Of a stretch of 64,000 nucleotides of DNA, positions 11,833-63,934 are shown in pieces. The notes beneath the pieces were generated by a model, which was given only the letters and a program-made list of their open reading frames with translations, did not search any database and was not told the origin of the DNA. This DNA comes from an uncultured virus (IMG/VR IMGVR_UViG_3300025727_000009) (taxonomy: Duplodnaviria; Heunggongvirae; Uroviricota; Caudoviricetes). Each line of letters begins with the position of its first letter. The first letter of the stretch is position 1. A program made the translations under genes and the position numbers. The stretch covers positions 1 through 64,000 of IMG/VR virus record IMGVR_UViG_3300025727_000009. One strand, 5' to 3'.

Positions 11833-12190
11833 GTCCTCGACAATACCAGATGACCTTGCCCACGTGGATCGCGCCCTCAGTGGGCTGGTCCACAAGATTG
11901 AGACTACCGAAGGTGGCTTCGTCCTACAGGTCGACCCCCTTTTATTAGTCGCTAATAATGCGGGCTTCAAGGCCGCGCTTCGCGAAGTCCTACCGAACTA
12001 CACGGTCTATGCGAAGAAGAACGGGGTAGTGCGCCTCATCAAGAGGAAGCAAAATACGCGGCGGAATCGCGCAGGCTCACGACTGAAGCTGGAGCAGGTT
12101 GGTGAGGCGTTTGAGACCCAGGCGGTAGAGGTGCAGGAGCAGGGGGACGACGGCGCCGCTGACGCTGTGGACTTTTTTGCGCCTGATTGA
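11831..12190 (+). CDS. Hypothetical protein (uncertain)
   Basis: 119 aa with natural-looking composition and an acidic tail, but it overlaps minus-strand ORFs. Confidence 0.35.
   Translation: MSSTIPDDLAHVDRALSGLVHKIETTEGGFVLQVDPLLLVANNAGFKAALREVLPNYTVYAKKNGVVRLIKRKQNTRRNRAGSRLKLEQVGEAFETQAVEVQEQGDDGAADAVDFFAPD
11943..11957. repeat. Dispersed palindrome TATTAGTCGCTAATA
   Basis: Perfect arms; lies upstream of terL. Confidence 0.9.
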
Positions 12191-22096: not shown

Positions 22097-25000
22097 TAGT
22101 ACGGGCTCTTGGAGCCTGAGTCGGGCTTACCGAACTCAGCTGTGTACGCAATGCCGGGAGCCGGGTGGACCCCATGGATGTCCGACTTCCAACCCTCGTT
22201 CGCCGCGCGGGTGAAGGTCTCCTTGAGCTTCCGGTACTGCAGTCGAGCAATCCAGTCCGTGGTCTGGTCCAGGGCCAGGGTCTCGACGCCGCGGAGAACG
22301 GGGACGACCTTGACGGTCTCCTTCCCCTTGTTGGCTCGGTTGAGGGCGTTCACCTTCGTCAAACTCACGTAGTCATTACGGATGATGCCCTCCTCGTCGC
22401 CCACTTCACCGGGGTCTTCTACAACACCCAAGTTCGTAAGCGCGCGGACGACGACCTCGACGTTTCGCTTCTTGACCCCCGCCTCCGCATACACCCCGTG
22501 GACCTCGTCGGTCAGGTAACGCTGCACCCGGTCCAGGTTGGTCAGCGTCAATAGCTCTCGGGGGTCAACCGGCCCCGAGCTGAGGGCATCACCCTTCTTG
22601 ACCGTAGCGCCCACCTTGAACTGGAGTGTCCGACCGTGCGGTATGTAGTGCTCCTCGCCGCCGACAGTGATGTCGTAACCGCCCACCGCGCTCTTCGCTA
22701 TCTTGCCCACGCGCCCGGGGACCTGAGCCAACGTGGCCTTCCCCGGCAGGGTCTGAGGAATCTTCAAGAGCTGCTTCACGCGTTCGATGCCACCCACCAC
22801 AGAGCTACCGCCCGCACCGGAAGCGCCGCCTGTGTGGAACACCCGCATACTCAGCTGCGTACCGACCTCACCGATAGCCTGACCAGCGATGACCCCGATG
22901 TTTGTCCCGAGCGCAACGGGGCCACCCCCGTCCATAGCGCCGTAGCACTTCGCGCACATCCCCTGGTGGGACTCACACTTCGTCGGCGACCGGACAACCA
23001 GACCGTCCACACGCGCGGCCTTGAGACTTGTAACCATCTGCGGCGTGATGAGACTTCCTGCCCGGAACGACTGCCCCTTCGCCTTGACTCCCTTGACGAG
23101 AACGCGGTCTACAAGGTCGCTGTCCCCAATCTTCATGTGGATGCCCGTGGTCGTTCCGCAGTCCTCGACGGTGATGACCTGTGGGATGGCCGTGTTCACA
23201 ATCTGCTTGGAGAGCGCTCCCGGCTCACTCACGGACTGCACCTTCTCGATAAGCCCCTTCCGCGCACCGGACGACGCCGTCCAGTAGCCCGCGGTGGAGA
23301 GCCCTTCTGCGTAGGACTTAGTCACAGGAACAGGGATGATACGTCCGTCCGCGTTCTCCATCAGGAGGGGCGCGATGATGAGCTGCTGGAGCTGGGACCA
23401 GCCCGGCTTCACGCCCGCCTTGTACATGGTGTACAGCCGGTTCCCAGTAGCCTGCAGGTACTTCTCCGCGTCGTTTTTGATGTCAGCCGTCGCCTTTTGG
23501 TACAGCGCGACAACCTTGCCGTCCTGCTCTTTCCGTGTGCCGCCCGCCCCGCGGACCACCTTCTCGCGTGCCTGCGCGACCTTCAGGTGCTTATCCCGAA
23601 TCGTGCTCAGGGTATTGAAGTCGTCAGAATCAAAACTGAACCCGCTGCTGTAGGCGAACCCGAAGCCGAGGTCCTTCAGCTTGTCTACAGAGTTAGCGAA
23701 CTGCGCAGGATGGTCGGTGGCTAGGTCCCGCAGCACACCTTGGAGGCTCTTATTATTCAGGGTGAAGTCCGCATCCTCCAGCAGTTCCGCGGTTCGCAGA
23801 CTCGCAGGAAGGGCACCCGCAATCTTCAATCGCCCGGCGGTGGTCTTCTTCCCGTCCACTGTGACCACATCGGTCATGGCGATGTCGCCCTTGTTGGCCG
23901 CGTCGATGGCGTCCTTGTTGCTCGCGAACTTCTCCCGGGAGCGCTTCCCGAACTGCGTGAGCATGAACAGCCCCAGCTGCCCCTCCAGCGAGGGTTGGTA
24001 CATGACCTTCCCGGTCGAGGGGTTGAAGAGGTTCTTGCTGGGCATCATCTTGTACGCCTCGTCGACCGCGCCCTGCGAGATAGGCACGAACACCCCCATC
24101 GCGTCCCCGTCGAAGTCAGCGTTGAAGCCCCCCACCACCAACGGGTGGATATGGATGGCCTTCTCGTCGTCGATGATGCGCGCCTTGAACGCCATGATGC
24201 CGAACTTGTGCAGCACCGGGTCTCGCTTGAAGAGGACCGGGCGCTTGGAGGCCACGACCGCGAGCGCCTTGTTCGCCAGCGACGTGTCCTTCTCGATTTC
24301 TTCCCGCGCCTGGAGAGGTGTGTAGCCCATGGCCACCATCTCCTTGACGACGAAGGGCCGGAAGATTTTCATCGCCCCCTTCTTCGGGAGGCCCATCTCG
24401 TCCAGGTGCAGGCTCATATCCGGGACGATGACCGACCGCATGGTCAGGTCCTGCTTGCGGTCGAGGATGGCCTTGTGGAAGTAGCTCTCCTTGGGCGAGG
24501 TGCGCCCTGAGAGGATGTTGAGGATGCCAGGGGGCCTGGGCTGCCCATCAGTCGTCAAACCCTGGTCAGAGGCCGTGGCGGTACCCATGAGTGCTTCGAC
24601 GGCGCTGTACAGTTCAGTGCGGAGCTTGAACAGCTCCGCGTCCGGCAGAACCCCTTTGGCTGCCTTCAGCTGGTCACTCAGCAACGAGACATCCCGGTAG
24701 AGCAGGTTGAGTCCGTCCACGTTGAGGTCACCCGCCTCCATCACAGAAATGGGGCGGAACTGCGGCGGAACGACCGGAAGGTTCTCCAGGACGTACGCCT
24801 CTCTAGCTGACAGCCCCGTCTTGTTGAGCATCAGGAGGTACTTGATTCTCTTGTTGACCTTGTCGAGGCTGCTGCGGCGAGCGGTCTTGATTTCTTCCTT
24901 GGCCGCGGTCAGCTCCTTGTCGACTTCGATGCCGGACAGTGCCGCTGCAAGGGCAGCGGGCCCGGTAGCCCCGCCCTCCTCTGTGACCTTGCCATCCTTG

Positions 25001-28000
25001 TCCAGCGAGACCTTCCCCGCGAGGATGCCGTCGTACTGCTTACCAGTGAGCCCGAGCAGCGACCGAATACCCTTCTCAAAGAGGGGGTTGGGCATGGACT
25101 CAGCCAGGACCAAGTGGCTCCAGTTCTTCCCGCCAACGCCGCCTGTGATTTCCTCATCGAAGAGGCCGCCCTTCTCCGGGCGCAGGTCCTTACCACGGAC
25201 CACCTTGCCGCCGTCCTCCAACGCACCGGACGACATCTCAGTAATCTGCTTGTCGGTCATGGGGAGCACGACAAGCTCGTTGCCGTGCTTCTCGACGTTG
25301 ACTCCGAGCCCGTTGAGGTACCCGAGAAACTTCTCGTACGCAAACGACGGGCGGGGCGCGGGAAGCATCTGCCCTGTCTGAATGGCCGTCCAGATTTCGT
25401 CCTGGGACCGGTCTGAGTTCCCAACCAGGAAGCCGCGAACGAAGTACCTGTGCGTATCCTCCACCTCCAAATTGAACAAGTACTTCCCCCGCCATTCCGG
25501 CAGGTCTCCCAAGCACCCAGCAGGCTCAACTGCGTCAACCGGGGTCTCCACCAATCCCGGGGCACCAGGAGCAGAAAACTCAACCAGCTTCTGCCCAATA
25601 GGGGCCACCACATCGCAGGTCTTGTAAGACAAACTAGGGTGAAGGTACGGACCCAGCTTGCTCAAGAAGTGCTCTGCGGCCACTCCGTGCTTCTTGAGGT
25701 GGTCGACGTTGTCGTTGAAGTGCACCTCCGTCAGCCGCTCGATAGCCGCGATGGCAGACTTCCGCTCATCCGAGTTCATCGAGTAGACCGCAAGACCCGC
25801 CTGCACACCGCCGCCATTACTCAGCGAACGATACCCACAGCCATCGTCCTGGAACCAAATTGCCAATGACCTCAACGTCAGCAGGTCCCACACCTCCTGT
25901 GGGAAGCGCCTCTCCCCAGAGGCATAAAACTGACGATGCAATTTCAGGAACTCAGGCGTAGCGAAGCTGGACCACTCCACCATCTGCTGCCCACAGCTGA
26001 AGCCTTGGTACCCCGCGGTGTATTCCCGCAGCTCTCGGTGCGTGAACGAACTCAGTGCATCCGCCTTGAACTGGAGATACTCCCGCTGCTTCACCGAATG
26101 GCGTTCCTGGAAGTAAGGAAACCGCGAAGTCTCCTTCTGCGCCATGTAACCATCCCCCAGGAGTGAGCCCAGCAGAAGGTCATGCTGGCCCTCCGAAAGC
26201 TCGTTTCCCCAGGTGAGTATGGCATCCACCCCAGGGCGGAGGTCTTTCGCCCACACCTTCTCCAGCTGCCCCTCGCGCCGAACGTAGAACTGGTGCTCCT
26301 CGGTACAGAGAACCGTCCCTTTCACGAAGGCAAACTCGCCGCTCCGCCTGCGGTGCGCCGTAACACGCACAAGCCGGTCCTGCTCCCCGTTACGCCTCCA
26401 GTAATTCTTGATGGGCCGGTAGCACAGCCCTTCTTCGTCCGACCACGTCAGCACCTTGACCGGGAGGCGATTGGTGACAATCTTTCCAATCTCGATTTCG
26501 CCTTGGTCGGTCAGCACCTTCTCGTGATACGGGAAGCACTTCCACGACAGAGCGTCGCGGATGTTGTTGACCGCGCCGTGGGCAATCATCGCGTAGAGGC
26601 CCAGCTCGCCGTACCGCTGAGCGCCGTCGTTACCACCGTAGGTACCTCGCGGCACCATGTTGGCGTTGTAAGCATGCCCGTAGCCGTGCGCGCGGGCAGA
26701 CAGCTTCTTGTCGACTTGGTGTTCCTGCTTGAGGATGTACTGGTGCCCCGTCATGACTGGGCCCAGGCTCTTCCCCGTCTCCGGGTCGAACAGCTCCGTC
26801 GTCTCCGACAGGCCCTTCTTCTCCAGGATTTGGTCAATGAGCCCCTTGTAACCGGTCTCGTACTCGTAGGGTTCAATCCAGATGCGCTTCGAGCCCTTCC
26901 CGGACTTGATTGTCCGGTAGTGCCCCTTGACCTGGACGATCTTGGTGGACACGTCGCCCACGCTGATGCGGTGCCCCTCGTCGCCATCGAAGTTCGAGAC
27001 CGCGTAGGGCTTCCCGTCCTCGACCGCTGCGAGCGTGATGGCGTTCTCCAGGACCTGCCCAGGATTGATGCGCCCAGGAACACCCGAGGGGTTCAGCACA
27101 ATCTCCAGCGGGGCACCATCGCCATCCCGGGGCATCTCCTCGTCCGGGAGGATGGCAACCACGACGCCTTTGTTCCCATGGCGTGAGGTCAGCTTGTCGC
27201 CGATGTCGGCCTCTTCTGCCGTCTTGACGTAAGCGACGACCTCTTTGCCGTTACGCACGACCTCCGTGACCACACCCGTGTACGGCTTGTTCCACGTGAG
27301 CGAGCGGTCCCTGTAGGGCTTGGCCAAGCTCTTGTGGATGCCCTTGAGCATGATTTGCTCTGCCGAAGGGTCCGCCTCCTTGAGCACTGTGGCAATCACG
27401 TCACCAGGGCGGACGATTTCGCCACGCTTGATGACCCCATCCTCGTCGAGCTTGGCGGCGTTCGCGTCAGAGACAACCCCGGGGAAGTTCGCACGGAACT
27501 TCTTCAGCCCCATCATCATCCCGGTGTCCAGGTACACACGCGGCTTGTGCAGGTGCTCACTGGTGAGCTTCTTGGCGGCCGTCTCACTAATGGTGATGCC
27601 GTCCTCGTAGTTGAGCCCCTTGTACGCCAGATAGCCCACGCGCAGATTGGTGCCCATCGAGAGGACGCCGCCCTTGGTGAAGCTAGTGTCAGCGATGACG
27701 TCGTCCTTCTTGACCTCGTCGCCCTTCTGCACCAGGGGCTTGCTGGTAACGAACGCCTTGGAGTCGTTGAGGGGGTAGTTATCGTAGAGCTGGACAACGT
27801 GCTTCTTGCCGTCGTCCCCTGCCACCACAATGCGCTCGGCTTCGACCGACTTCACCGTCCCGGACACCGGGCTGGCGTGTGACTGCATTTGGCCGAGAAT
27901 CTTCTCCCAGGTGTCCCATGCCGGCTGGTCCGAGCCAGAAGCCACCTGAAGAAGGGGCTCCTCGGGGTTCTTCAGCGGAACCGTCTGCTCCATGTGACGC

Positions 28001-29532
28001 GCAGCCATTCCCGCACGGTTCGCTTGGTCAGAGGGCAAGAACGGTATGAGGTTCGCAGTGAATGAGAACATCGCCTTGGGAGATCGCAGAACATAGTCCA
28101 CCTCGTTGGCTTTCACATTGGTGGGGTCACCCTCACCCCCGCGGATGACCGTGATGAGGTCTTTCCGAGGCTTGAAGGTCTTTCCGTCTCCCGTGTCGTA
28201 CTGGTCGGGAAAGGCCAGCGTCTTCCCGTGCAGCTCCGTGGGGGAGACATCCGCCCACTTGCTGTTCTTCACGTCCCACACCTTGATGACCGGCTCGTTG
28301 CCTCGCTTGGAGACACCCAGCGTCAGGTGCGTGGTGATACCACTTCGGGTCCCCTCCGGGCTGTGAAACGGGTCAGTGAAGCCCATCTGGCTAGAGTCCA
28401 GCATCTTGGCAGAATGACTGACCGCGTTCTCCGTGCTGATACCGCCGGTGCCCATCAGGGTGGCTTTGAGGTGCCCGCCAATCATGTCGACCGGGTTCAG
28501 CTGTGAGGGGCGCTGAGACAGGGAGGTCGAGGTGAAGAACGACTTGACCGGGACGTTGAAAACGTCAGGGGTCACAATCTTGCGGATGTCGTCACGGCGG
28601 TCCAGGTTGTTGCGGATCTTCCGCTCCACCCGACGACGCGAGTTCTTGATGCGCTCCGGGAGGTGGTCGGCCACCGTCCACAGCTCCTTGAACCGGAGGG
28701 AGTCACGGTTGTCCACCTCGGCCGTCCCACGAGAAACGCCGAGCAGCTTATTAGCCGCTAATAGCAGCGCCTCGCCGGTGACGGTCGTGAAGCCCTTGCC
28801 CAAGGTGACGCTGGTGGTGTCCGGGCGAAGCTCGGTCGCCGCGAACGACTCACGTACAACATCCTCGACCTCCTCGGGAGTGGTCGCTTCGGACCGGGGG
28901 TTCAGGGTCTTGGCGAGCTTCGCCATCTGCCCTTTGCGCTGAAGGCGTGCGGCGGTCTGGTAGACCTCCGGCCCCCAGGCCGTCTCCATCTCCTCGGCGC
29001 TGATACCCAGTGTCTGAAGAAGGGGCACGAGGGGCGTGTTGGTCGTCCCGTGGGTGGCCAGGAACTGGCGCTTCTTGGGGTCGAAGCTCACACGGAACCC
29101 GCGGCCCTTGCTCAGGTTGAACTGGGTCTCCAGTCCGCCGTTAGCCTTCATACGTGTGTACGCGCCGGCCTTGAGGCGCCACTGGTTGTCTGCTTGGTAC
29201 TCCGTCCCGTCCACGATGAACGAGTACCGGCGGGTGTAGTGCGGCAGATTCAGCAGCCGCACGCCCTTGGTTTTCGACACCACTTTGCCGGAGGCTTTGT
29301 CCACCAGCTCCATGTCCGCGAGGATGGGGACCGCCCATGTCCGATTGCGGACCCTGGCCCGCTTTTGAGCGTGTATGTCGTCGATGTGGACGTTGGGCCC
29401 AGCATAGACGTTTGTAGCGCGCAAGATGCGCGTCCGCCCCTCAATCGGGAGGGTGTCTTTGAGAACCTGGATTGTGCCGTCTTTGAGGGCTTGCATCGCC
29501 CTCTCTGGGTCCAGGGTATGGATATCCGCCAT
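22096..29532 (-). CDS. rpoBC: Fused RNA polymerase beta-beta' subunit containing an intein (ORF open to 29571)
   Basis: Beta motifs SPEG..SG, LIPFL..D..NRA.M, GLNYEDG, GDKLTSRHGNKGVV and QRYGE are followed in frame by beta' motifs RSVI, RDPVLH, FNADFDGD, GARKGL and GEVGTQLSMRVFHTGG. Confidence 0.95.
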   Translation of the reverse strand: MADIHTLDPERAMQALKDGTIQVLKDTLPIEGRTRILRATNVYAGPNVHIDDIHAQKRARVRNRTWAVPILADMELVDKASGKVVSKTKGVRLLNLPHYTRRYSFIVDGTEYQADNQWRLKAGAYTRMKANGGLETQFNLSKGRGFRVSFDPKKRQFLATHGTTNTPLVPLLQTLGISAEEMETAWGPEVYQTAARLQRKGQMAKLAKTLNPRSEATTPEEVEDVVRESFAATELRPDTTSVTLGKGFTTVTGEALLLAANKLLGVSRGTAEVDNRDSLRFKELWTVADHLPERIKNSRRRVERKIRNNLDRRDDIRKIVTPDVFNVPVKSFFTSTSLSQRPSQLNPVDMIGGHLKATLMGTGGISTENAVSHSAKMLDSSQMGFTDPFHSPEGTRSGITTHLTLGVSKRGNEPVIKVWDVKNSKWADVSPTELHGKTLAFPDQYDTGDGKTFKPRKDLITVIRGGEGDPTNVKANEVDYVLRSPKAMFSFTANLIPFLPSDQANRAGMAARHMEQTVPLKNPEEPLLQVASGSDQPAWDTWEKILGQMQSHASPVSGTVKSVEAERIVVAGDDGKKHVVQLYDNYPLNDSKAFVTSKPLVQKGDEVKKDDVIADTSFTKGGVLSMGTNLRVGYLAYKGLNYEDGITISETAAKKLTSEHLHKPRVYLDTGMMMGLKKFRANFPGVVSDANAAKLDEDGVIKRGEIVRPGDVIATVLKEADPSAEQIMLKGIHKSLAKPYRDRSLTWNKPYTGVVTEVVRNGKEVVAYVKTAEEADIGDKLTSRHGNKGVVVAILPDEEMPRDGDGAPLEIVLNPSGVPGRINPGQVLENAITLAAVEDGKPYAVSNFDGDEGHRISVGDVSTKIVQVKGHYRTIKSGKGSKRIWIEPYEYETGYKGLIDQILEKKGLSETTELFDPETGKSLGPVMTGHQYILKQEHQVDKKLSARAHGYGHAYNANMVPRGTYGGNDGAQRYGELGLYAMIAHGAVNNIRDALSWKCFPYHEKVLTDQGEIEIGKIVTNRLPVKVLTWSDEEGLCYRPIKNYWRRNGEQDRLVRVTAHRRRSGEFAFVKGTVLCTEEHQFYVRREGQLEKVWAKDLRPGVDAILTWGNELSEGQHDLLLGSLLGDGYMAQKETSRFPYFQERHSVKQREYLQFKADALSSFTHRELREYTAGYQGFSCGQQMVEWSSFATPEFLKLHRQFYASGERRFPQEVWDLLTLRSLAIWFQDDGCGYRSLSNGGGVQAGLAVYSMNSDERKSAIAAIERLTEVHFNDNVDHLKKHGVAAEHFLSKLGPYLHPSLSYKTCDVVAPIGQKLVEFSAPGAPGLVETPVDAVEPAGCLGDLPEWRGKYLFNLEVEDTHRYFVRGFLVGNSDRSQDEIWTAIQTGQMLPAPRPSFAYEKFLGYLNGLGVNVEKHGNELVVLPMTDKQITEMSSGALEDGGKVVRGKDLRPEKGGLFDEEITGGVGGKNWSHLVLAESMPNPLFEKGIRSLLGLTGKQYDGILAGKVSLDKDGKVTEEGGATGPAALAAALSGIEVDKELTAAKEEIKTARRSSLDKVNKRIKYLLMLNKTGLSAREAYVLENLPVVPPQFRPISVMEAGDLNVDGLNLLYRDVSLLSDQLKAAKGVLPDAELFKLRTELYSAVEALMGTATASDQGLTTDGQPRPPGILNILSGRTSPKESYFHKAILDRKQDLTMRSVIVPDMSLHLDEMGLPKKGAMKIFRPFVVKEMVAMGYTPLQAREEIEKDTSLANKALAVVASKRPVLFKRDPVLHKFGIMAFKARIIDDEKAIHIHPLVVGGFNADFDGDAMGVFVPISQGAVDEAYKMMPSKNLFNPSTGKVMYQPSLEGQLGLFMLTQFGKRSREKFASNKDAIDAANKGDIAMTDVVTVDGKKTTAGRLKIAGALPASLRTAELLEDADFTLNNKSLQGVLRDLATDHPAQFANSVDKLKDLGFGFAYSSGFSFDSDDFNTLSTIRDKHLKVAQAREKVVRGAGGTRKEQDGKVVALYQKATADIKNDAEKYLQATGNRLYTMYKAGVKPGWSQLQQLIIAPLLMENADGRIIPVPVTKSYAEGLSTAGYWTASSGARKGLIEKVQSVSEPGALSKQIVNTAIPQVITVEDCGTTTGIHMKIGDSDLVDRVLVKGVKAKGQSFRAGSLITPQMVTSLKAARVDGLVVRSPTKCESHQGMCAKCYGAMDGGGPVALGTNIGVIAGQAIGEVGTQLSMRVFHTGGASGAGGSSVVGGIERVKQLLKIPQTLPGKATLAQVPGRVGKIAKSAVGGYDITVGGEEHYIPHGRTLQFKVGATVKKGDALSSGPVDPRELLTLTNLDRVQRYLTDEVHGVYAEAGVKKRNVEVVVRALTNLGVVEDPGEVGDEEGIIRNDYVSLTKVNALNRANKGKETVKVVPVLRGVETLALDQTTDWIARLQYRKLKETFTRAANEGWKSDIHGVHPAPGIAYTAEFGKPDSGSKSPY
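25417..26538 (-). mobile_element. Intein with LAGLIDADG endonuclease in the RNAP (374 aa)
   Basis: LSWK|CFPYHEKV...CTEEHQF...LLGSLLGDG...WFQDDG...FLVGN|SD; removal restores the beta C-terminal KSD motif. Confidence 0.9.
28749..28763. repeat. Dispersed palindrome TATTAGCCGCTAATA
   Basis: Inside the RNAP CDS, read as LLAANK. Confidence 0.9.
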
Positions 29533-29590
29533 CGGGGAAAAGCCTCTGTTTTGGGGCGTACCTTCGCCCATACTAGCAGCGCACGGCCTG

Positions 29591-42109: not shown

Positions 42110-44908
42110 TTGGGTAAGTTCGCCGTCCTTCCTCCTACCATGCTCATCAAGACGCGGCAGGAGGCCGAAGTCGCCCTCGCCCAGCTGCGCATTGGGAAGG
42201 GCGGCAAGCGCTCTCGCGTAGTCGCGATTGACACTGAGACCACCGGCTTGAGCCGGCAACGCGACTACGCGCTCATCATGAGCCTTTCTACCGGGCCGAA
42301 CCGCTACGCGATATGGCCCGAGGCGTTCTCCTACTTCACGGAGTACCTAGAAGACCCTGAGCTACAGCTGCTCATGTGGAACGCCAACTTCGACACCTGG
42401 ATGCTGCGGAACGCCGGCATCGACATCTACCGCAACTGCGACCGCACGACCTACCGCGTCTTCGACGCCATGATTATGCACGCGCTGGATTACGACGACC
42501 GGCCGCACACACTGAAGTACGCAGCCAAGGAGATGCTCGGCATCGTTATGGTGGACTTCAAGGCCACCTTCGGCGCGCAGATGCGCACCCGGAAGCTGCA
42601 CGAGATATTCCTGGACCCCGCCAATGAGCCTGTCGTGGCGAACTACGCGGGGCTCGACGCCTACTCAACCTTCGCCCTGGCAGTCGCGCTCCAGAAGAAA
42701 CTATTAGCGACTAATACTGGTGTCGAGGAGTACCCCACCCTGTGGGACTACTTCCGGCACACCGAGGTCCCCTTCACCCGGGTCCTCTTCGAGTGCGAGA
42801 GCAACGGCATCGGGCTGGACAAGCACCGGCTCATCGCAATCGCGCCTGAACTCGACCGCAAGATGATTGCCCTCATGCGGTGGTTCGTGAAGAAGACCAA
42901 GAAGGTGGGCATCAACCTCAACTCAAACCCGCAGATGATTGAGCTGTTCTTTGGGGACCTGGGGTACAACCCCCCCTCGTACACCGAGAAAGGTGCCCCA
43001 CAGCTCCCGCAGAAGTGGTTGTCGCGCATCGCTTCTGATGGTTGTGTCTACGCGGACAAGTTGCTCGCCTACCGCGACCTGAAGAAGAAGCAAGCCACCT
43101 ACGTGCGTGGGCTGCTCAAGTTGGAGCACCGCGGGCGCATCCACACCACGTACAAGCAAGCTGGTGCTCGTACCGGCCGCCTATCGAGCGCGGATCCGAA
43201 TTTACAAAATCAACCTGGGTACATCCGCTTCGCCTACATCGCGGGCGAAGAAAAAGTACTAATTGCTAGGGATTACTGCTTCGCAACCGGCACCCTGGTT
43301 GACACCCCGCTCGGCCCTCGGCCGATTGAATCTTTGCAGGTGGGGGACCCTGTCTTCTCCTACGACCCTGACAGGCGGGTTCCTGTAGTAGGTACCGTAG
43401 ATGAGCACCACGCTGTCGGCGTTGAGCCCGTCGTTGAGATTGAGCTGGACAACGGAGAGCGGATTGTCTGCACGGGCGAGCACAAGTTCATGGTTTGTCC
43501 TGAGAAGTACGTGGCAGACCCCATTGGCGTAGAGGCGCAGGACCTAATCCCTGGAATGCGCCTGCTTCCTCTGCGGAGGGCGTACGGGGGGACGAACCGA
43601 AATTACGAGCATCTCTACGCCCATCAAGCGGTCGTTTATTCCAAGACGCACACAGAGGTAGCGGCCTGGGCGATGGGCGCCCGCCCTGAGGGCTACCACA
43701 CGCACCACAAGGACGGAGACAGCCTAAACAACCACCCCGATAACCTGGAGTACCTGGACGCCCGCCTGCACCTCTCCGAGCACGCGAAGGAGTCTTGTAC
43801 GCGTCAATGGCGGGACCCTGAGACGCGTGCAGCCATGCAGTCGGGTATCCGTCAGAGCATCGCCGACCGTGGGGGCTACAACGGGAAAAACAATCCCCGT
43901 CATGGCGACCGTAGGGGGCGGGTGTACACCGCCTGCCTGTTCTGTGACCAACCGATAGAGACATTCGCTTCTACGAAGAAGAAGTACTGCTCCCGTACCT
44001 GTTACTTCGACCACAAAAGACAGGGAGGAAACCACAAGGTCGTAGCTGTCCGGCAGCTGCAAGTAAACCAGCAGGTGTGGAGCATCGGAGTAGCGCCGCA
44101 CAGAAACTACGCGCTGGCTGCAGGGGTCTTCGTAAAGAACAGCCAACTGGAGATGCGCATCGTCGCGCACTTCAGCCAGGAGCCCAATCTCATCCAGGCT
44201 ATCCGTAGTGGGCAGGATGTCCACTGCTCCTGCGCCGCGCTCATGTTCAAGCTGCCTTACGACGAAATCATGGCAGCTCGGGCACGGGACGACGAGATCG
44301 ACGAACTGAAAAAGGCCGGGCACCCGTACGAGCCGCTGAGTCCCCGAGAGATAGAGTGCCTCACGGCCCGGAAGGCGGCCAAGGCCATCAACTTCGGCCT
44401 GATTTACGGCATGGGTCCGCAGAAGCTCAGCCGAGAGCTGCGGGTCAAGGTGGAGGTCGCCAAGGACTACATCCGCACGTACTTCCAGCAGATGCCCGGG
44501 GTGCAGGACCACCTTCGTCGGGTCATTGGTTTAGCCGAAGAGTCCGGGGTAGTCACCACCATTCTCGGTCGGCGGCGGCAAATCCCGGGCATCTGGTCCC
44601 ACCTACGCGGGGATATCGCCCAGGCGGAACGCCGCGCCAAGAACACTCCCATCCAGGGGACCGCGGCGGACGTCACCAAGATGGCCATGATTAAGACCTA
44701 CGAGGATGACTGGCTCTACGAGATGGGCTACCGCATGCTCCTACAGGTCCACGATGAAATCGTCGGGGAGGCCCCAATCTCCGCGGCTCGTAATCCCCGT
44801 TTTGTTGGACGCCTCCAGCACCATATGGAACACTCGTTGCCATATGACCTGCTGGTCCCCCTAGACACCACCGGAAAAGACGCGGCCGACTGGGCTGGGT
44901 GCAAGTAA
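42110..44908 (+). CDS. polA: Family A DNA polymerase with 3'-5' exonuclease and an intein
   Basis: DTETTG, NANFD, YAGLD, TGRLSS..PNLQN, DY|SQLEMR, KAINFGLIYG, IQGTAAD and QVHDE motifs. Confidence 0.95.
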   Translation: MGKFAVLPPTMLIKTRQEAEVALAQLRIGKGGKRSRVVAIDTETTGLSRQRDYALIMSLSTGPNRYAIWPEAFSYFTEYLEDPELQLLMWNANFDTWMLRNAGIDIYRNCDRTTYRVFDAMIMHALDYDDRPHTLKYAAKEMLGIVMVDFKATFGAQMRTRKLHEIFLDPANEPVVANYAGLDAYSTFALAVALQKKLLATNTGVEEYPTLWDYFRHTEVPFTRVLFECESNGIGLDKHRLIAIAPELDRKMIALMRWFVKKTKKVGINLNSNPQMIELFFGDLGYNPPSYTEKGAPQLPQKWLSRIASDGCVYADKLLAYRDLKKKQATYVRGLLKLEHRGRIHTTYKQAGARTGRLSSADPNLQNQPGYIRFAYIAGEEKVLIARDYCFATGTLVDTPLGPRPIESLQVGDPVFSYDPDRRVPVVGTVDEHHAVGVEPVVEIELDNGERIVCTGEHKFMVCPEKYVADPIGVEAQDLIPGMRLLPLRRAYGGTNRNYEHLYAHQAVVYSKTHTEVAAWAMGARPEGYHTHHKDGDSLNNHPDNLEYLDARLHLSEHAKESCTRQWRDPETRAAMQSGIRQSIADRGGYNGKNNPRHGDRRGRVYTACLFCDQPIETFASTKKKYCSRTCYFDHKRQGGNHKVVAVRQLQVNQQVWSIGVAPHRNYALAAGVFVKNSQLEMRIVAHFSQEPNLIQAIRSGQDVHCSCAALMFKLPYDEIMAARARDDEIDELKKAGHPYEPLSPREIECLTARKAAKAINFGLIYGMGPQKLSRELRVKVEVAKDYIRTYFQQMPGVQDHLRRVIGLAEESGVVTTILGRRRQIPGIWSHLRGDIAQAERRAKNTPIQGTAADVTKMAMIKTYEDDWLYEMGYRMLLQVHDEIVGEAPISAARNPRFVGRLQHHMEHSLPYDLLVPLDTTGKDAADWAGCK
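42702..42716. repeat. Dispersed palindrome TATTAGCGACTAATA
   Basis: Inside polA, read as LLATNT. Confidence 0.9.
43277..44140 (+). mobile_element. Intein with HNH endonuclease in PolA motif A (288 aa)
   Basis: DY|CFATGT...CTGEHKF...HHKDGDSLNNHPDNL...VFVKN|SQLE. Confidence 0.9.
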
Positions 44909-47885: not shown

Positions 47886-48659
47886 GTGAAGGTGCTCATT
47901 CGTACCACCAAGGGTACAACGAAGCAGGTAACGGGCAGGCCCTTGGTACGCGGATTGGCGTTCCATCCTTCCCTCTCAAACACGCCGACCAACGGCAACC
48001 TGCACAACATCACACACTTGGAGAGCGGGCTATCCGTGCTCCACCAAGTTCCGCATGACGCGATACCCCGGATAGCTGAGATGCTCGCGGTGGTGAGCTG
48101 GGATACCAGCTCTTCCATCATCTTCGACTCGGCCGAGCACACCAACACCCTGGAAGACTGCCTGGAGTTCCTCGTGGCATACAAACATCGATTCAGCCAA
48201 CGCTGTGAGGCGGATGTAGCCAAGGACCTGGGTGGCAAGGTCCAGCCTGCGAGCGGGTCGCTCCCCGGCTATAAGCGGGACATCCTCACCGCGGACATCC
48301 TGGCCGAGCACAAGACCTCCGAGCCGGGGTCGCAGTCGGCCGACTACCGGGATGTCGACCTGAGGGACCTTGAGTTCCATAGACGTCAGGCGCTCAGCAT
48401 CGGCAAGGTGCCCGCCTACATCTTCGCCTTCGAGGGTCAGGACAGCATCGTGTTCCTCCCCGCGGATGAACTCGACGACGATTTGGCGGGCATGAACTTC
48501 CACGAGGTCGACGTTTCCTCGCAGGTGGTTTGGCGGCTGCACAGGGCGACCGGCCTGAAGCTGAACGAGACCACTTGGCTCAAGCTGATTCTCGCCAAGC
48601 GGGTCTGGCTGGGTGTGCCCTACCTGGACTTTCTGGAACTGGCGAAAGGCAACTTCTGA
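47886..48659 (+). CDS. PD-(D/E)XK nuclease (Holliday junction resolvase-like)
   Basis: E..VAK.LGG..QPASG....RDI...EHKT motif. Confidence 0.55.
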   Translation: MKVLIRTTKGTTKQVTGRPLVRGLAFHPSLSNTPTNGNLHNITHLESGLSVLHQVPHDAIPRIAEMLAVVSWDTSSSIIFDSAEHTNTLEDCLEFLVAYKHRFSQRCEADVAKDLGGKVQPASGSLPGYKRDILTADILAEHKTSEPGSQSADYRDVDLRDLEFHRRQALSIGKVPAYIFAFEGQDSIVFLPADELDDDLAGMNFHEVDVSSQVVWRLHRATGLKLNETTWLKLILAKRVWLGVPYLDFLELAKGNF

Positions 48660-49846
48660 TGGTTCAGATGTGCACCGGGGACATCTTCGCAAGCACCGCG
48701 GACGCCCTGGTAAACCCAGTAAACTGTGAGGGGGTCATGGGTGCCGGGCTGGCACTGCAGTTCAAGAAGCGCTTTCCCGAGAACTTCACAGCGTACGCCA
48801 AGGTGTGCCAGGACGGCGACCTCCACCCCGGTAAGCTCTTCACCTTCGAGGACCCCGCGTCGAACAGGCTCATTGTAAACGCCGCGACCAAGGCCGAGTG
48901 GCGTAACCCGTCGAACCTAGACTGGGTAGTCAGCCTAGGGGAAGAGTTGCGCCAGCTAACGGAGGAGCGAGACATCAAGCGGCTCGCTGTCCCGGCGCTT
49001 GGCACCGGTTTGGGCACGCTCCCGTGGCTCGCGGTCCGGGACATTTTGGCGGAGAGCCTTATGACCTCCTCCGTCGAAATTGAGCTGTACGAGCCGAGGG
49101 GCTACGAGCCGCCCACACTGCCCCAGGAGGGGTACTACGCCTCGGCCTGCCTCAGCCACACGGGGAAGCCCGCCGCCAACGCGGACTACTCTCTCGTCTC
49201 CTACATCCGGTTCTCCCGGGGAGACGACGCCAAGACCTACGACCGCAAGATTGGGTGCTACCACCCTTCCGCTGTGAGCCTTGAGGGATGCAACCGCGCC
49301 CTGGCTTACGAGCGGCTTGCGGTTACCCCGAGGCCCGTCCCCAGGACGCACGGCTTCGGAGTCAACGTCTTCGACCTCGGGGACGCAATCCACGACGCCA
49401 TCCAAGGCCGCCTCTCCAAGGTGACCGGAGTTCATGGACAGCGTTTCCATCCTGAGGTCGAAATCAGCTACCCCCCGCTGGGGCTCTACGGACACTGCGA
49501 TGGCGTGTTCGGGCAGCTGGTGGTGGAAATCAAGAGTGTGAGCAAGAACATCTTCAAGGGGCTCAAGGCCCCGATGGCTAGCCACATTCGCCAACTGCAC
49601 TGCTACATGCTGGCTCTGGATATTCCATACGGAGTCATCCTGTACGTGTGCCGAGACAACGGAGAATTCCGAGAGTTTCCCGTCCACTTCAGGGCGGACG
49701 TGCTGGCGCGCATCGCCACCACGATTCACAACATCGAAGCCCACTTGCGACGCGGAGTGATTCCTGACCAGGAACCGAACTCGTTCATCTGTTCACGCTG
49801 CAAATTTCTCTACACGTGTAAGCCGGACCTAGCCAAAGATGAGTGA
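48659..49846 (+). CDS. Macrodomain (DarG/YmdB-like) fused to a Cas4-like exonuclease
   Basis: GDIF...ALVNPVNCEGVMGAGLALQFK and PALGTGLG, then HPS...C, G...H, CDG, EIKS, QLHCYM and C..C.....C. Confidence 0.8.
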   Translation: MVQMCTGDIFASTADALVNPVNCEGVMGAGLALQFKKRFPENFTAYAKVCQDGDLHPGKLFTFEDPASNRLIVNAATKAEWRNPSNLDWVVSLGEELRQLTEERDIKRLAVPALGTGLGTLPWLAVRDILAESLMTSSVEIELYEPRGYEPPTLPQEGYYASACLSHTGKPAANADYSLVSYIRFSRGDDAKTYDRKIGCYHPSAVSLEGCNRALAYERLAVTPRPVPRTHGFGVNVFDLGDAIHDAIQGRLSKVTGVHGQRFHPEVEISYPPLGLYGHCDGVFGQLVVEIKSVSKNIFKGLKAPMASHIRQLHCYMLALDIPYGVILYVCRDNGEFREFPVHFRADVLARIATTIHNIEAHLRRGVIPDQEPNSFICSRCKFLYTCKPDLAKDE

Positions 49847-52661: not shown

Positions 52662-52691
52662 TGCAAAACGGGCATTGGTTTTTGAGATAGG
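52662..52691 (+). promoter_or_regulatory. Putative promoter TGCAAAA-N17-GATAGG
   Basis: Member of the repeated promoter family. Confidence 0.5.
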
Positions 52692-52731: not shown

Positions 52732-52929
52732 ATGTTGGACGCCAAGCACCTCTCCAAGTCCATGCAGCACTTCTGCACGGCTCTCCCCACCCGCTTTCAG
52801 TGGACCCCCCACAACCTTTGGGCGCACCCCCTCTCCGAGCTGCTGTTCCAGCTCGGGTACGAGGACGAGGGGAACTGGGTACACGAAGCAACCATTCCCA
52901 TCCACGAACGCGGTACCGGTCTGGGCTAG
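52732..52929 (+). CDS. Small hypothetical protein
   Basis: ATG after GGAAGG, preceded by the hairpin TTCCAGCGGCG...CGTCGCTGGAA. Confidence 0.5.
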   Translation: MLDAKHLSKSMQHFCTALPTRFQWTPHNLWAHPLSELLFQLGYEDEGNWVHEATIPIHERGTGLG

Positions 52930-52939
52930 TCCCCGGCCC

Positions 52940-52969
52940 GAAGCGCCCCCTCCTGGGGCGCTTCTTCTT
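52940..52969 (+). terminator. Terminator-like hairpin
   Basis: GAAGCGCCCC-CTCCT-GGGGCGCTTC followed by TTCTT. Confidence 0.6.
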
Positions 52970-52973
52970 ACCC

Positions 52974-53011
52974 TGCAAAAACCGCGCATGTCTGGGTATA
53001 AAGACAATGAA
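52974..53011 (+). promoter_or_regulatory. Putative promoter of the large ncRNA (TGCAAAA-N16-TATAAA-N4-ATGAA)
   Basis: Member of the repeated promoter family. Confidence 0.6.
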
Positions 53012-53017
53012 GGGACA

Positions 53018-53830
53018 CGTATAGCTTCGGCTGTTCAGGGAACTTCTGGTTGTATGGAATCGTCAGGATAACTCGCGGTGACGCGGGGAAAGGTTTGGCC
53101 CGCTCCGGGTTGGACCACCGAGTAGTCGGCCCATCTATACAAGTCTGAGTCTGCCCTCGTGAGGGGTCGCTGGTGAAGAGCCGGTGGAGAATTGTGCAGG
53201 AGTGGTGGCCCCGCGGCGGCGGGATAAAGTGACCGGGCGGAGAAATCCGTGGTCGCGGAAGCTGGGCTGGTACCCCGGCTGCCATGCATCCAAATCCAAC
53301 ACAAGTGCTCGGGTAACAGATAGCGTACGTGAACAATCTGTGAGGAGGCAGCTCCAGGCAGGTCGTACGAAGTTCGATAGGGTGTGAGTTCTTTAGTCGG
53401 GAAACCGGCAGCCCTTGAAGAACCGATAAATCGGGTGACTGACCCGAGAATGTCACGAGATGGTGTGGGAGTTCCCTATGGTCAAAAGCCATGGGCCCGC
53501 TGGTAAGGCGCCATCTCTAGGAGAAAAACCGGTTAGGAGCCGGACTACGCATTTCACGCGAAGCTGCAATCAGCCCTTACCCGGGTACTGTCGAAAGATG
53601 CCTAATCGTCTGCCCTCCATGGGGAACGGACGCACCTAAAGCTCGCAAGGCTAAGGGTGTCAGTTGAAGAGCCGTAGGAGTGGGCCGCAAACCTATTCTG
53701 AGGGGACACTGCTGAGTAGACGTATCCGCTAATGGTAGTAAACCCGGCTTCGGTCGGCTCTACCGGCATTGTATGGCTACTGGGGAGACCCAGTGGATAG
53801 GGCCCTGAAAAGGGGCTCAAAGGCTGTACG
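53018..53830 (+). ncRNA. Large structured non-coding RNA candidate (~810 nt, GOLLD/ROOL size class)
   Basis: No credible ORF; 10-bp 5'/3' closing helix; multiple GNRA and UUCG tetraloop hairpins with G-U pairs; flanked by a promoter and a terminator. Confidence 0.75.
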
Positions 53831-53831
53831 C

Positions 53832-53859
53832 GAAAGGGGGTAATTCTCACCCTTTTCTT
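53832..53859 (+). terminator. Terminator-like hairpin after the ncRNA
   Basis: GAAAGGGGG-TAATTCTCA-CCCTTTTC followed by TT. Confidence 0.5.
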
Positions 53860-53867
53860 ACCCCTAT

Positions 53868-53882
53868 TATTAGCCGCTAATA
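53868..53882. repeat. Dispersed palindrome TATTAGCCGCTAATA
   Basis: Intergenic, 3 nt upstream of a promoter motif. Confidence 0.9.
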
Positions 53883-53885
53883 ACG

Positions 53886-53924
53886 TGCAAAACGGGTACC
53901 CCTTTAAGGGATAAGAACTATGAA
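53886..53924 (+). promoter_or_regulatory. Putative promoter TGCAAAA-N17-GATAAG-N4-ATGAA
   Basis: Member of the repeated promoter family. Confidence 0.65.
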
Positions 53925-54129
53925 CAAGGAGGATTACATGGATTTCATTGACCCGAAGAAGTGTCCTTGGTTCCAGGAAATCTGGGACATCCTGGAGAAC
54001 CCGAGGCCGGGCGGAGTGGAGCGAGTGAAGGAGCTGACCAAGCTCATCTCGGACCGCTCCAAGGTCCGGACGGAAGCGTACAACGCGGACTTGTCCGCTC
54101 GAATCGAAGCGATTAACAACCGGGGCTAG
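53920..54129 (+). CDS. Small hypothetical protein (probably leaderless)
   Basis: 69 aa; ATG lies 4 nt after the GATAAG box. Confidence 0.55.
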   Translation: MNKEDYMDFIDPKKCPWFQEIWDILENPRPGGVERVKELTKLISDRSKVRTEAYNADLSARIEAINNRG

Positions 54130-54167
54130 TCCCCCACCAAGCCCCGCTGGGGCAGAACGGCTGAGAG

Positions 54168-54532: not shown

Positions 54533-54672
54533 GGAAGCATTACGCTCTCCTCCCACCCCAAGGCATCCTGCCTTTTGGTGGGATGAACACTTCGAGGCTG
54601 GAACCACGGTGCTGTGGGTCCGTAGGCTTTGGAGTCTTTAGAATACGCCTCATTGAGGCGGAAGGATTCGAT

Positions 54673-62032: not shown

Positions 62033-63934
62033 CTAGTACCCCGGGACGGCGGCAAGGGATTTGAACGCGAGCATGTACACACGTGGCAGCTCAGCCGCCG
62101 TTTCCGAGTTTACCCGAACAGCCAGCCTGCCCGCAGTAGCGACCACCCCGGTGTACCGGTACATGAAGCTCGGTAGCTGCCCTGGCAGGGCATAGTAGAC
62201 ATCCAGGTCGGTGCCCGTCCGCTCCAGGAAGATGTCGTACGTAGTGCCCCGCCAGAACTCGATGCGCATGCTGGCGCCTGGGTTGGTGTCGTTGTCCCAG
62301 TAGTCGGTGGCTGTGACGCCGCTCATCGGACCGAAAGCGTAGTCGGCCGCTTCTTGGAGGTCGGAAAACAGCCCCCCACCGAACCAGTTGTCTGTATCCA
62401 CGTCGGTGACGCCATTGAGGAAGGCGAAAGACGTCTGAAACCGTGTGGCGTTGTTCAGGTCAATGCCCTGCGGGAGCGAGACAGCGAGGCGCATCGCATA
62501 CACGAAGTCCGTCGCGGGGGTGTTAGTGGTGTGAACCACCCCCTGGGCCTGCAGGGCGTCCGTCAGGACCATGCGGATGATCGTGCCGTTCACATCCACG
62601 GTGTCCCGTGTAGCCAGCGCCTGATCCCCACCATACCCGCTGGCGTCGGCCCACTCCGCCAGCACGGGCGTGGCGCCTGTGTACGCCCAGTCTCCGACGC
62701 CCACGCCATCGCCCGCCGCAGACGGGGTAGCGGGCGCCCAGCGCGAATTGCCGTTATCCCAGGCCAGCACCTGTGTGTCTGTCGGGGCGTCCGTGTGGAC
62801 CGTACGGCCCTGGAGCTGGGTAGCGTTATGGACCAGCGTCGTCGGGTCCCAGCGCGTATTGCCGTTGTCCCACACCAACGCTTGGCCGTCCGTGGGTGCG
62901 TCCGTGTGAACGGTGCTGCCCTGGAGCTGCGTGGCATTGTGGACGAGGGTAGTCGGGTCCCACCGGCTGTTCCCGTTGTCCCAGGCCATGACCTGCCCGT
63001 CTGTGGGCGCGTCGGTATGAACTGCGTAGCCTTGTAGCTGTGTGGCGTTGTGGGTCTCCACCGCGTACGTGTCCGGAGCGCCGTCGAACCACACCATGCC
63101 CGCGGTAGCGGTCACCATGGTAGACGCCGCCTTCTGGAGGCAGTAGCCGACCTGCCGCGTGAAGTCACCGACGTCCTTCGCCATCAGCCCCCCGTTCGAG
63201 ATGTAGACCGGGTCGTTCTCGGCCGTGTACCCCGACGTGTCCAAGGGGAAGTAGCCCCGCAGCATCAGCATGCCTGTGGCGCCGTTGGCGACCGTTCCCA
63301 GCCACGCACCAATCGAGGCATCCCCAATGGCCGCCTGTGTGCCGAGCGCCGTTCCCGTCTGGGCAACGATGTCCGTCAGGTGGGCGGACATGGCGTCACC
63401 GTCTGCGCCAGCCCCAGAGAAGCGGGCGTAGTCCGTGACCTGCGACAAGTCCCCCGCCGACCGCTCCGCGCCGGTACCGTTGATGGCCATGACAGCCATG
63501 CGCCCACCAAGGACTTGCTGGAGGCGGCGGAGGTGCTGCTCGATAGACCGGGACCAGCCTGTCTGGTCCGTGTACTGGCCGCCCTCGCGTGGGGCCGGAA
63601 GAGCCTCAGCCCCGTACCCGCTGGCAATCTCAAAGAGGCCGGAAAGAGTGACTTGGTCGCCGCCTGTCTCCGTCACGATACAGATGACGAGGTACCGCCC
63701 CGCTACCTTGGGCGTGAACGTCTTGTCCTCCAACGTCGAGGACAGCCCAGAAAGCCCCAGCCCGGCCGGGTGGTGTTCCGGCCCGTACAGGAAGAAACCC
63801 TCCCCATCACCGGGGGCGTCGTAGTCACCCCAGACGGCCCCAACCGACAACGCGACTGTTACCTGCACATTCGCGGGACGGTTCTGCAGGACCTGCTGAG
63901 GTCCTGTCGCGTCCTCCATCGTAAGCGTAGCCAT
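62033..63934 (-). CDS. Tail/virion structural protein with internal repeats
   Basis: 633 aa; Ig/PKD-like N-terminus (FTPKVAGRY) and three 37-aa repeats. Confidence 0.6.
   Translation of the reverse strand: MATLTMEDATGPQQVLQNRPANVQVTVALSVGAVWGDYDAPGDGEGFFLYGPEHHPAGLGLSGLSSTLEDKTFTPKVAGRYLVICIVTETGGDQVTLSGLFEIASGYGAEALPAPREGGQYTDQTGWSRSIEQHLRRLQQVLGGRMAVMAINGTGAERSAGDLSQVTDYARFSGAGADGDAMSAHLTDIVAQTGTALGTQAAIGDASIGAWLGTVANGATGMLMLRGYFPLDTSGYTAENDPVYISNGGLMAKDVGDFTRQVGYCLQKAASTMVTATAGMVWFDGAPDTYAVETHNATQLQGYAVHTDAPTDGQVMAWDNGNSRWDPTTLVHNATQLQGSTVHTDAPTDGQALVWDNGNTRWDPTTLVHNATQLQGRTVHTDAPTDTQVLAWDNGNSRWAPATPSAAGDGVGVGDWAYTGATPVLAEWADASGYGGDQALATRDTVDVNGTIIRMVLTDALQAQGVVHTTNTPATDFVYAMRLAVSLPQGIDLNNATRFQTSFAFLNGVTDVDTDNWFGGGLFSDLQEAADYAFGPMSGVTATDYWDNDTNPGASMRIEFWRGTTYDIFLERTGTDLDVYYALPGQLPSFMYRYTGVVATAGRLAVRVNSETAAELPRVYMLAFKSLAAVPGY
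62720..63052 (-). repeat. Three tandem 111-bp (37-aa) repeats
   Basis: HNATQLQG..VHTDAPTD.Q...WDNGN.RW.P units start at 63052, 62941 and 62830. Confidence 0.85.

What the first reader, a model, noticed from the sequence alone, without database searches (positions are those of the whole stretch)
53018..53830. Candidate giant structured non-coding RNA (~810 nt) with its own promoter and terminator
Seen: this is the only long gene-free stretch in a dense genome. Its 5' end CGTATAGCTT (53018-27) pairs with the 3' end AGGCTGTACG (53821-30) using G-U pairs. Internal hairpins have canonical tetraloops: CCTC-GTGA-GGGG (53155), GTCGG-GAAA-CCGGC (53396), TGTC-GAAA-GATG (53589), CCGGC-TTCG-GTCGG (53744, nested in GGTAG/CTACC), CTACTGGG-GAGA-CCCAGTGG (53777) and CCCT-GAAA-AGGG (53803). 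A longer-range helix GAGATGGTG/CGCCATCTC pairs 53457 with 53509, and several AGTA (E-loop-like) motifs occur. The G-U pairs and GNRA loops work on the plus strand, matching the promoter. Known: GOLLD and ROOL are large phage-associated RNAs of unknown function in this size class. Inference: a divergent GOLLD-like RNA or a new class; it does not interrupt a gene as an intron would.
Basis: partly seen in the sequence, partly recalled or inferred. Interest (0 to 1): 0.9.

Follow-up and report, generated by a model that had tools for sequence, protein, structure and literature searches.

The report
Divergent GOLLD cage RNA, tRNA-free phage
This gene-free stretch of a large marine phage is a real folded RNA, but it belongs to an already known family of cage-forming phage RNAs (GOLLD); it is an unusually diverged member that lacks the tRNA genes these RNAs usually sit among.

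Summary
The structured RNA is real, but it is not a new class. Its 3' half (53456-53853) matches the whole Rfam GOLLD model (137 bits, E 5e-38), just under the 150-bit cut-off, so a default scan misses it. Models built without the window find GOLLD 5'-domain modules at 53047-53150 (E 2e-7) and 53312-53459 (E 0.004); the part between them was not recovered. Seawater metatranscriptomes hold a roughly 92%-identical relative as one ~790-nt contig; of its listed changes, 6 are compensatory pairs, 6 keep a pair and none breaks the helices scored. Distinctive features: no tRNA nearby or inside (12 of 67 GOLLD loci are like this), only one P21 hairpin, a GNRA-capped P26, its own repeated promoter motif, and a host phage with a fused beta-beta' RNA polymerase whose two syntenic relatives showed no GOLLD. 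It probably forms an RNA cage; its role (best guess: shielding phage translation early in infection) is inferred only. Verdict: new member of a known family, modest interest.

The parts
52941..52969 (+). GC-rich hairpin plus pyrimidine tract after the upstream 65-aa gene; likely terminator insulating the RNA gene
   Evidence: read from the sequence; not called by the terminator scan; inferred
52974..53002 (+). promoter-like motif TGCAAAA...GGGTATAAA; copies at 53886 and 54494, looser ones at 52662 and 29592; predicted start about 53009-53011
   Evidence: function inferred
53018..53047 (+).
   Evidence: RNA contigs begin at 53021, 53026 and 53029
53048..53150 (+). GOLLD 5' module P1-P5; GUGA GNRA loop on P3; P4 fully paired, lacking the CCUA-type loop common in homologues
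   Evidence: leave-window-out HMM E 2.2e-7, only hit in the 71.5-kb genome; alignment A3
53151..53311 (+). middle 5' subdomain, lineage-specific and fast-changing; hairpins at 53154, 53170, 53237-53250 and 53260-53280 (UGGU loop, CCA at 53290)
   Evidence: not recovered by leave-out models; 3 compensatory pairs in the relative
53312..53455 (+). last module of the GOLLD 5' domain (three stems)
   Evidence: leave-out covariance model R3, top hit, 20.1 bits, rough E 0.0035; 1 compensatory pair in the relative
53456..53518 (+). P14 with the conserved UCAAAAG loop
   Evidence: Rfam RF02032 alignment
53519..53578 (+). variable linker J13/15: no tRNA; two small hairpins with 7-nt loops 4 nt apart (possible eroded anticodon arm plus T arm); conserved GCAA
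   Evidence: the tRNA-remnant reading is inference
53579..53853 (+). conserved GOLLD 3' core: long-range helix, CUCGCAAGG loop, single P21 hairpin (CGCAA loop), P23 (53771-78 with 53822-29), GAGA-capped hairpin, GNRA-capped P26, P27 loop GUAAUUCUCA
   Evidence: variants
53853..53859 (+). U-rich tract after P27; probable 3' end
   Evidence: inferred
53868..53882 (.). TATTAGCCGCTAATA near-palindrome, one of 11 in the window; genome-wide signal, not part of the RNA
   Evidence: 0 in 100 shuffles

Best explanation
A full-length (~830-840 nt) GOLLD RNA gene, transcribed on the + strand as a stand-alone unit in a large tailed phage that encodes a fused beta-beta' RNA polymerase. Shown: family identity of the 3' domain and of two 5' modules, and selection on the helices. 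Supported but not proven: abundant transcription. Inferred from solved GOLLD structures (about 0.8): it folds into a 5' cap and a 3' ring and self-assembles, through GNRA A-minor contacts and GC kissing loops, into a hollow dihedral cage with the linker inside; with one P21 hairpin it more likely resembles the Streptococcus agalactiae 10-12-mer than the env-38 14-mer. Inferred role (about 0.3, the likeliest single option): an accessory early-infection RNA that shields phage translation, acting as a very abundant, stable carrier or decoy of tRNA-like RNA against host RNA-cutting defences; here it would have to act in trans or with only a tRNA remnant, as no tRNA gene is nearby. The confidence figure is for identity plus cage.
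For: Rfam model positions 1-416 matched, 137.3 bits, E 5.3e-38; Kretsch et al. collected GOLLD at E 1e-5 (PMC12286853, passage). Leave-out models hit the two 5' modules in the right order. In alignments of 36 and 31 GOLLD sequences, 19 of 20 and 45 of 49 consensus pairs have two-sided changes; the window keeps 17 of 27 and 42 of 64 pairs predicted without it (several misses look like register shifts). A relative in 3 of 4 laid RNA runs spans 53021/26/29-53815 as one 786-798-nt contig at depth 6, 80 and 58, against 2.6-5.4 for flanking fragments in the latter two runs. Of 42 substitutions scored, 18 fall in the helices I defined: 6 compensatory pairs, 6 one-sided and still paired, 0 broken. Loops that make bridges in env-38 (supplement Table 2) have counterparts by eye: L3 GNRA, UCAAAAG, linker GC with CGCAA, a GC-bearing P21 loop, a GNRA on the hairpin inside P23. 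Role: 55 of the 66 other loci have a tRNA nearby or a tRNA or T-loop motif in the linker; the gene shares a promoter motif with small accessory genes; phage tRNAs countering tRNA-cutting defences is in print (search listing only).
Against: The score is below Rfam's gathering cut-off of 150 (one search found nothing). 53151-53311 was not recovered by either leave-out model, so homology there is unproven. The RNA evidence is assembled contigs only: no strand, no true ends, DNA carry-over not excluded, runs were found with a query centred on the RNA, three 2019 runs carry the same variant and may be one campaign, and they hold a relative, not this phage. Only 40 of 145 difference rows were shown, I drew some helices after seeing them, and 24 of the 42 substitutions lie outside the scored helices. 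No cage, timing or target was tested; the lack of any tRNA in cis weakens the tRNA-carrier idea.
Confidence: 0.85

Rival explanations
1. A new RNA class, or a chimera of a GOLLD 3' domain with an unrelated 5' domain.
For: Below the gathering score; best identity to any non-identical GOLLD collected is 44-47%; middle subdomain not recovered.
Against: Both ends of the 5' domain are found by models built without the window; a variable 5' domain is a described property of GOLLD (PMC12286853); L003, a GOLLD with an embedded tRNA, also scores under the cut-off (123.7 bits).
Confidence: 0.05
2. The 5' leader really pairs with 53821-30 and acts as a switch that displaces P23 and so gates folding of the 3' ring and cage assembly.
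For: 10/10 pairs, probabilities near 1 for most, and a stronger duplex than P23 in the window (-14.1 vs -10.4 kcal/mol); the leader matches the P23 5' strand at 7 of 8 positions.
Against: The leader duplex beats the P23-region duplex in only 3 of 36 sequences, the window included, and exceeds shuffled leaders by 3 kcal/mol only in the window. The relative's two changes in the 3' strand are matched in P23 and would break 2 of 10 leader pairs unless 53021 and 53023 also changed; those positions were not reported, though one contig aligns from 53021 without a loose end (weak).
Confidence: 0.08
3. GOLLD, but acting late, as a scaffold in virion assembly or lysis, like phi29 pRNA.
For: GOLLD expression rises during lysis (PMC12286853); it forms rings.
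Against: It sits at the end of the replication-recombination block among small self-promoted genes, not in the structural operon; two syntenic relatives showed no GOLLD (83% and 75% complete, and that search had no positive control).
Confidence: 0.15
4. Protein-coding or chance sequence, or an intron or ribozyme remnant.
For: A 174-aa ORF lies on the - strand at 52968-53492.
Against: GC3 0.58; the relative has single-base indels inside it; no intron, RNase P, tmRNA, ROOL, OLE or HEARO hit at E up to 10.
Confidence: 0.01

Closest known systems
GOLLD RNA (Rfam RF02032), env-38 14-mer (PMC12286853)
   Same: Size about 830 nt, whole 3' domain P14-P27, P1-P5 type 5' start, bridge-forming loops, phage location.
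   Different: One P21 hairpin instead of two; P26 is a plain GAAA-capped hairpin without the GGAA...AUAAUCC motif; P4 loop and middle 5' subdomain remodelled; 57% GC, the highest of the 67 loci; no tRNA gene nearby; extra 5' leader.
Streptococcus agalactiae GOLLD (10-mer and 12-mer; review PMC12990946, passages only)
   Same: Lacks one P21 branch (P21b) and still forms cages.
   Different: 700 nt with a reduced 5' domain; sequence not compared here.
GOLLD loci of uncultured phages collected here (L340, L018, L131, L363, L322 group)
   Same: Colinear 5' modules and 3' core.
   Different: 44-47% identity at best; most lie in tRNA arrays; the three carrier records tested (G008-G010) have no match to this phage's RNA polymerase.
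ROOL RNA
   Same: Large phage RNA that forms cages (works-like resemblance).
   Different: No Rfam match; unrelated structure.

Membership tests
GOLLD | Significant full-length match to the conserved 3' domain model RF02032 | tested here: met
   positions 1-416, 137.3 bits, E 5.3e-38; far beyond the 1e-5 used in PMC12286853
GOLLD | Rfam gathering score of 150 bits (a catalogue cut-off, not a structural feature) | tested here: not met
   137.3 bits; lost mainly to a 17-position deletion in P21, the changed P26 loop and a GC-rich linker; L003 with an embedded tRNA also falls short at 123.7, so I do not treat this as excluding membership
GOLLD | Helices of the 3' domain kept under selection | tested here: met
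   P23 two compensatory pairs; three one-sided changes kept in the helices at 53607-53659
GOLLD | Variable 5' domain homologous to other GOLLD 5' domains: first and last modules | tested here: met
   leave-out E 2.2e-7 and rough E 0.0035
GOLLD | 5' domain: middle module | tested here: inconclusive
   no hit with leave-out HMM or covariance model; structured by its own compensatory changes
GOLLD | Encoded by a phage or prophage | tested here: met
   terminase, PolA, primase, helicase, endolysin-like and baseplate-like hits; virus record
GOLLD | Often next to or containing tRNA genes (typical, not universal) | tested here: not met
   no tRNA in the window; one weak Rfam hit about 113 kb away in the identical 143-kb record, not confirmed by ARAGORN; 11 of 66 other loci also have none
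GOLLD | Expressed as a discrete abundant RNA | tested here: inconclusive
   relative assembled as one RNA-sized contig in 3 of 4 metatranscriptomes; contigs only
GOLLD | Forms a homo-oligomeric nanocage | not testable with these tools
   bridge-loop sequences present by eye against PMC12286853 supplement Table 2
ROOL, OLE, HEARO, group I/II intron, RNase P, tmRNA | Match to the family's Rfam model | tested here: not met
   none at E up to 10 over 52900-53950; ARAGORN finds no tmRNA
mReC phages (PMC7481178), for the host phage | RNA polymerase branches in the mReC clade | not tested
   fused beta-beta' domains shown; no tree was built

The most novel reading that the evidence does not exclude
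A tRNA-independent GOLLD subfamily of marine phages with a single-chain RNA polymerase, in which the 5' leader copies the P23 strand and acts as a strand-displacement switch that opens or blocks cage assembly, under a remodelled cap of new geometry.
Probability: 0.08. Interest if true: 0.7.

Novelty: new member of a known kind. Interest (0 to 1): 0.3.

Why it matters
GOLLD cages have solved structures, and I found no demonstrated function in the papers searched. This member is a natural stripped-down case: no tRNA gene beside or inside it, one P21 branch missing, P26 reduced to a tetraloop, yet still under structural selection and apparently abundant in seawater RNA. It can test whether GOLLD needs tRNA in cis and which bridges set cage size. 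It also shows that Rfam's default cut-off misses real GOLLDs. It does not itself reveal the function.

Tried and rejected
Rfam at gathering threshold: nothing in 64 kb, misleading. blastn against annotated phages: two 22-nt chance hits upstream of the RNA. Searches for close DNA relatives returned only identical copies, so the leader of the metatranscriptomic relatives could not be read. The 183-kb identical contig could not be searched for tRNAs. Leave-out model R2 found nothing at the locus. Model R1 included the window, so its window score is not used as evidence. Four helix registers (P13in, P20hp, P24, P26) were set off by one; none holds a listed substitution, so the counts stand. By-eye kissing-loop guesses in the 5' domain (CCUA loop partners; CTCGGGT with ACCCGAG) did not hold across homologues and were dropped. 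PMC7549688 was not held; the GOLLD alignment in the Kretsch supplement zip was not reached, so I could not check whether this sequence is already among their 806 GOLLDs. Earlier-finding searches by place and sequence were empty.

Full report
Observation. The quoted hairpins are all at the stated positions, the + strand folds better than shuffles (z -3.09) and the - strand does not, and no ORF across 52930-53919 has the codon signature of the neighbouring genes. The region is therefore a real non-coding, strand-specific structured element. Some details are wrong: the 3' end lies about 23 nt further on, one hairpin is probably part of a long-range helix, and the AGTA count is at chance level.

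Identity. Rfam at the default cut-off finds nothing in the window. With E-values, 53456-53853 matches all 416 positions of GOLLD (RF02032) at 137.3 bits, E 5.3e-38, against a cut-off of 150; the other three hits have E above 0.5. The Rfam model covers only the conserved 3' part, so I collected homologues. One pattern gave 102 stretches, 85 distinct; with three loci added from earlier searches, 77 had enough flank and a recognisable 3' end, 67 distinct, one being an identical copy of the window. Only four non-identical loci were confirmed by cmscan, L113, L018, L131 and L003; the rest rest on shared motifs and alignment. An iterated 5' HMM anchored 59 of the 67; after dropping 8 short or mis-anchored ones and clustering at 82%, 36 remained, at best 44-47% identical to the window. 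Their 5' domains covary strongly. Models built without the window find the first module at 53047-53150 (E 2.2e-7, sole hit in the genome) and the last at 53312-53459 (top hit, rough E 0.0035). The stretch between was not found and is remodelled in this lineage. A variable 5' domain on a conserved 3' domain is how GOLLD is described (PMC12286853; I read parts 1-3 of 9 of the main text, further passages, and supplement file 1).

Selection and expression. Eleven RNA runs held a small share of the query's words; I laid four. Three carry a relative with 50 substitutions and 17 gaps as one contig of 786-798 nt from 53021, 53026 or 53029 to 53815, two with a 14-22-nt tail that continues the GOLLD 3' end; a second, more distant relative matches in pieces. 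Depth was 80 and 58 against 2.6-5.4 for flanking fragments in two runs, and in the third only the RNA bins were covered. These are contigs, so strand, ends and level are not shown, DNA carry-over is not excluded, and the three runs may be one campaign. Of 42 substitutions I could read (40 of 145 rows shown, plus 2 from the tail), 18 fall in helices I scored: 6 compensatory pairs, 6 one-sided changes that keep pairing, none broken. Some helices were drawn after seeing the list. Single-base indels in the relative rule out the overlapping 174-aa ORF.

The end-to-end helix. In the family, 53822-29 pairs with 53771-78 (P23), and the relative changes two P23 pairs on both sides (A-U to G-C, G-U to U-A). 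A leader-tail duplex stands out from shuffled leaders only in the window among 36 sequences. The helix is most likely a coincidence, with a small chance of being a lineage-specific switch.

Context. The contig is a 71.5-kb fragment of a large tailed phage with terminase, PolA with intein, primase, helicases, RecA and a 2491-aa fused beta-beta' RNA polymerase. Identical copies lie on 143-kb, 49-kb and 183-kb contigs, the last titled marine metagenome. No tRNA lies near the RNA, whereas 53 of 67 loci have one in the flank held and 40 of 67 have a tRNA or T-loop motif in the linker; 12 of 67, the window's copy included, have neither. Two syntenic relatives (polymerase 59-61% identical) showed no GOLLD (incomplete records), and three carriers of similar GOLLDs lack the polymerase, which suggests horizontal gain. 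The RNA has an upstream terminator-like hairpin and a promoter motif shared with small downstream genes.

Mechanism. Shown: identity and structural selection. Inferred from env-38 and S. agalactiae structures (PMC12286853; review PMC12990946, passages): a two-domain fold and a hollow cage, probably 10-12 chains since one P21 branch is absent; which branch is kept is uncertain. The stem numbers in the 3' domain follow those papers by eye. For the role I favour, at about 0.3, an early accessory RNA that shields translation as a carrier or decoy of tRNA-like RNA: GOLLD linkers mostly hold tRNAs that erode by degrees, this linker keeps two 7-nt-loop hairpins (no tRNA-model hit), ribosome binding is reported second-hand, and phage tRNAs counter tRNA-cutting defences (search listing). 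A late, assembly role is the main alternative. Mycobacterial GOLLD with an embedded pseudo-tRNA is described in PMC6582537 (passages).

Verdict. A real, probably expressed, divergent but ordinary member of GOLLD. No demonstrated GOLLD function and no report of this locus turned up (25 of 29 papers listed); unseen supplements could already list it. Interest 0.3.

Noticed in passing
window 11943, 18528, 21343, 28749, 32047, 37139, 42702, 50517, 53868, 55375, 63946: Near-palindrome TATTAG(T/C)CGCTAATA, 11 copies in the window against 0 in shuffles, several inside genes, in a 61% GC genome; likely a phage-wide binding, late-promoter or packaging signal. Not seen in the 21-kb loci of two relatives.
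   Followed up: partly
window 22096-29571 (-): Single-chain beta-beta' RNA polymerase of 2491 aa with an internal LAGLIDADG domain (probable intein); relatives G003 and G004 have a 2089-aa fused form without that stretch.
   Followed up: partly
window 8962-11970 (-) and 42110-44908 (+): Terminase with a LAGLIDADG insert and DNA polymerase A with an HNH-bearing intein.
   Followed up: no
window 48659-49846 (+): Macro domain fused to a Cas4-like exonuclease; in the two relatives only the nuclease part matched.
   Followed up: no
window 54533-54671 (+): About 140-nt leader between the third promoter copy and the 54672 gene, containing a GC-rich hairpin (CCCACCCCAAGG...CCTTTTGGTGGG); possibly a small regulatory RNA.
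   Followed up: no
window 52916-52933 and 54121-54136: Similar GGGCTAGTCCCC hairpins overlap the stop codons of the two small genes flanking the RNA.
   Followed up: no
window 53371-53475 and 53624-53685 (runs X1, X3, X5, X11): A second, more distant relative of this GOLLD is present in the RNA runs; its P21 hairpin appears to have a GGCC-containing loop in place of CGCAA (loose end).
   Followed up: partly
alignment A4, columns 208-211 and 229-232: In homologues the UGGC/UGGU/UAGC loop covaries with downstream GCCA/ACCA/GCUA, a kissing contact like bridge B5; the window keeps 3 of 4 pairs (seen by eye).
   Followed up: partly
L018 2786-2855, L003 3166-3235, L291-L364 linkers: A graded series from intact to eroded tRNAs embedded in GOLLD linkers (35 of 67 called by relaxed ARAGORN).
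   Followed up: partly
window 62737-63069: Three tandem 111-nt repeats inside a baseplate-like gene.
   Followed up: no
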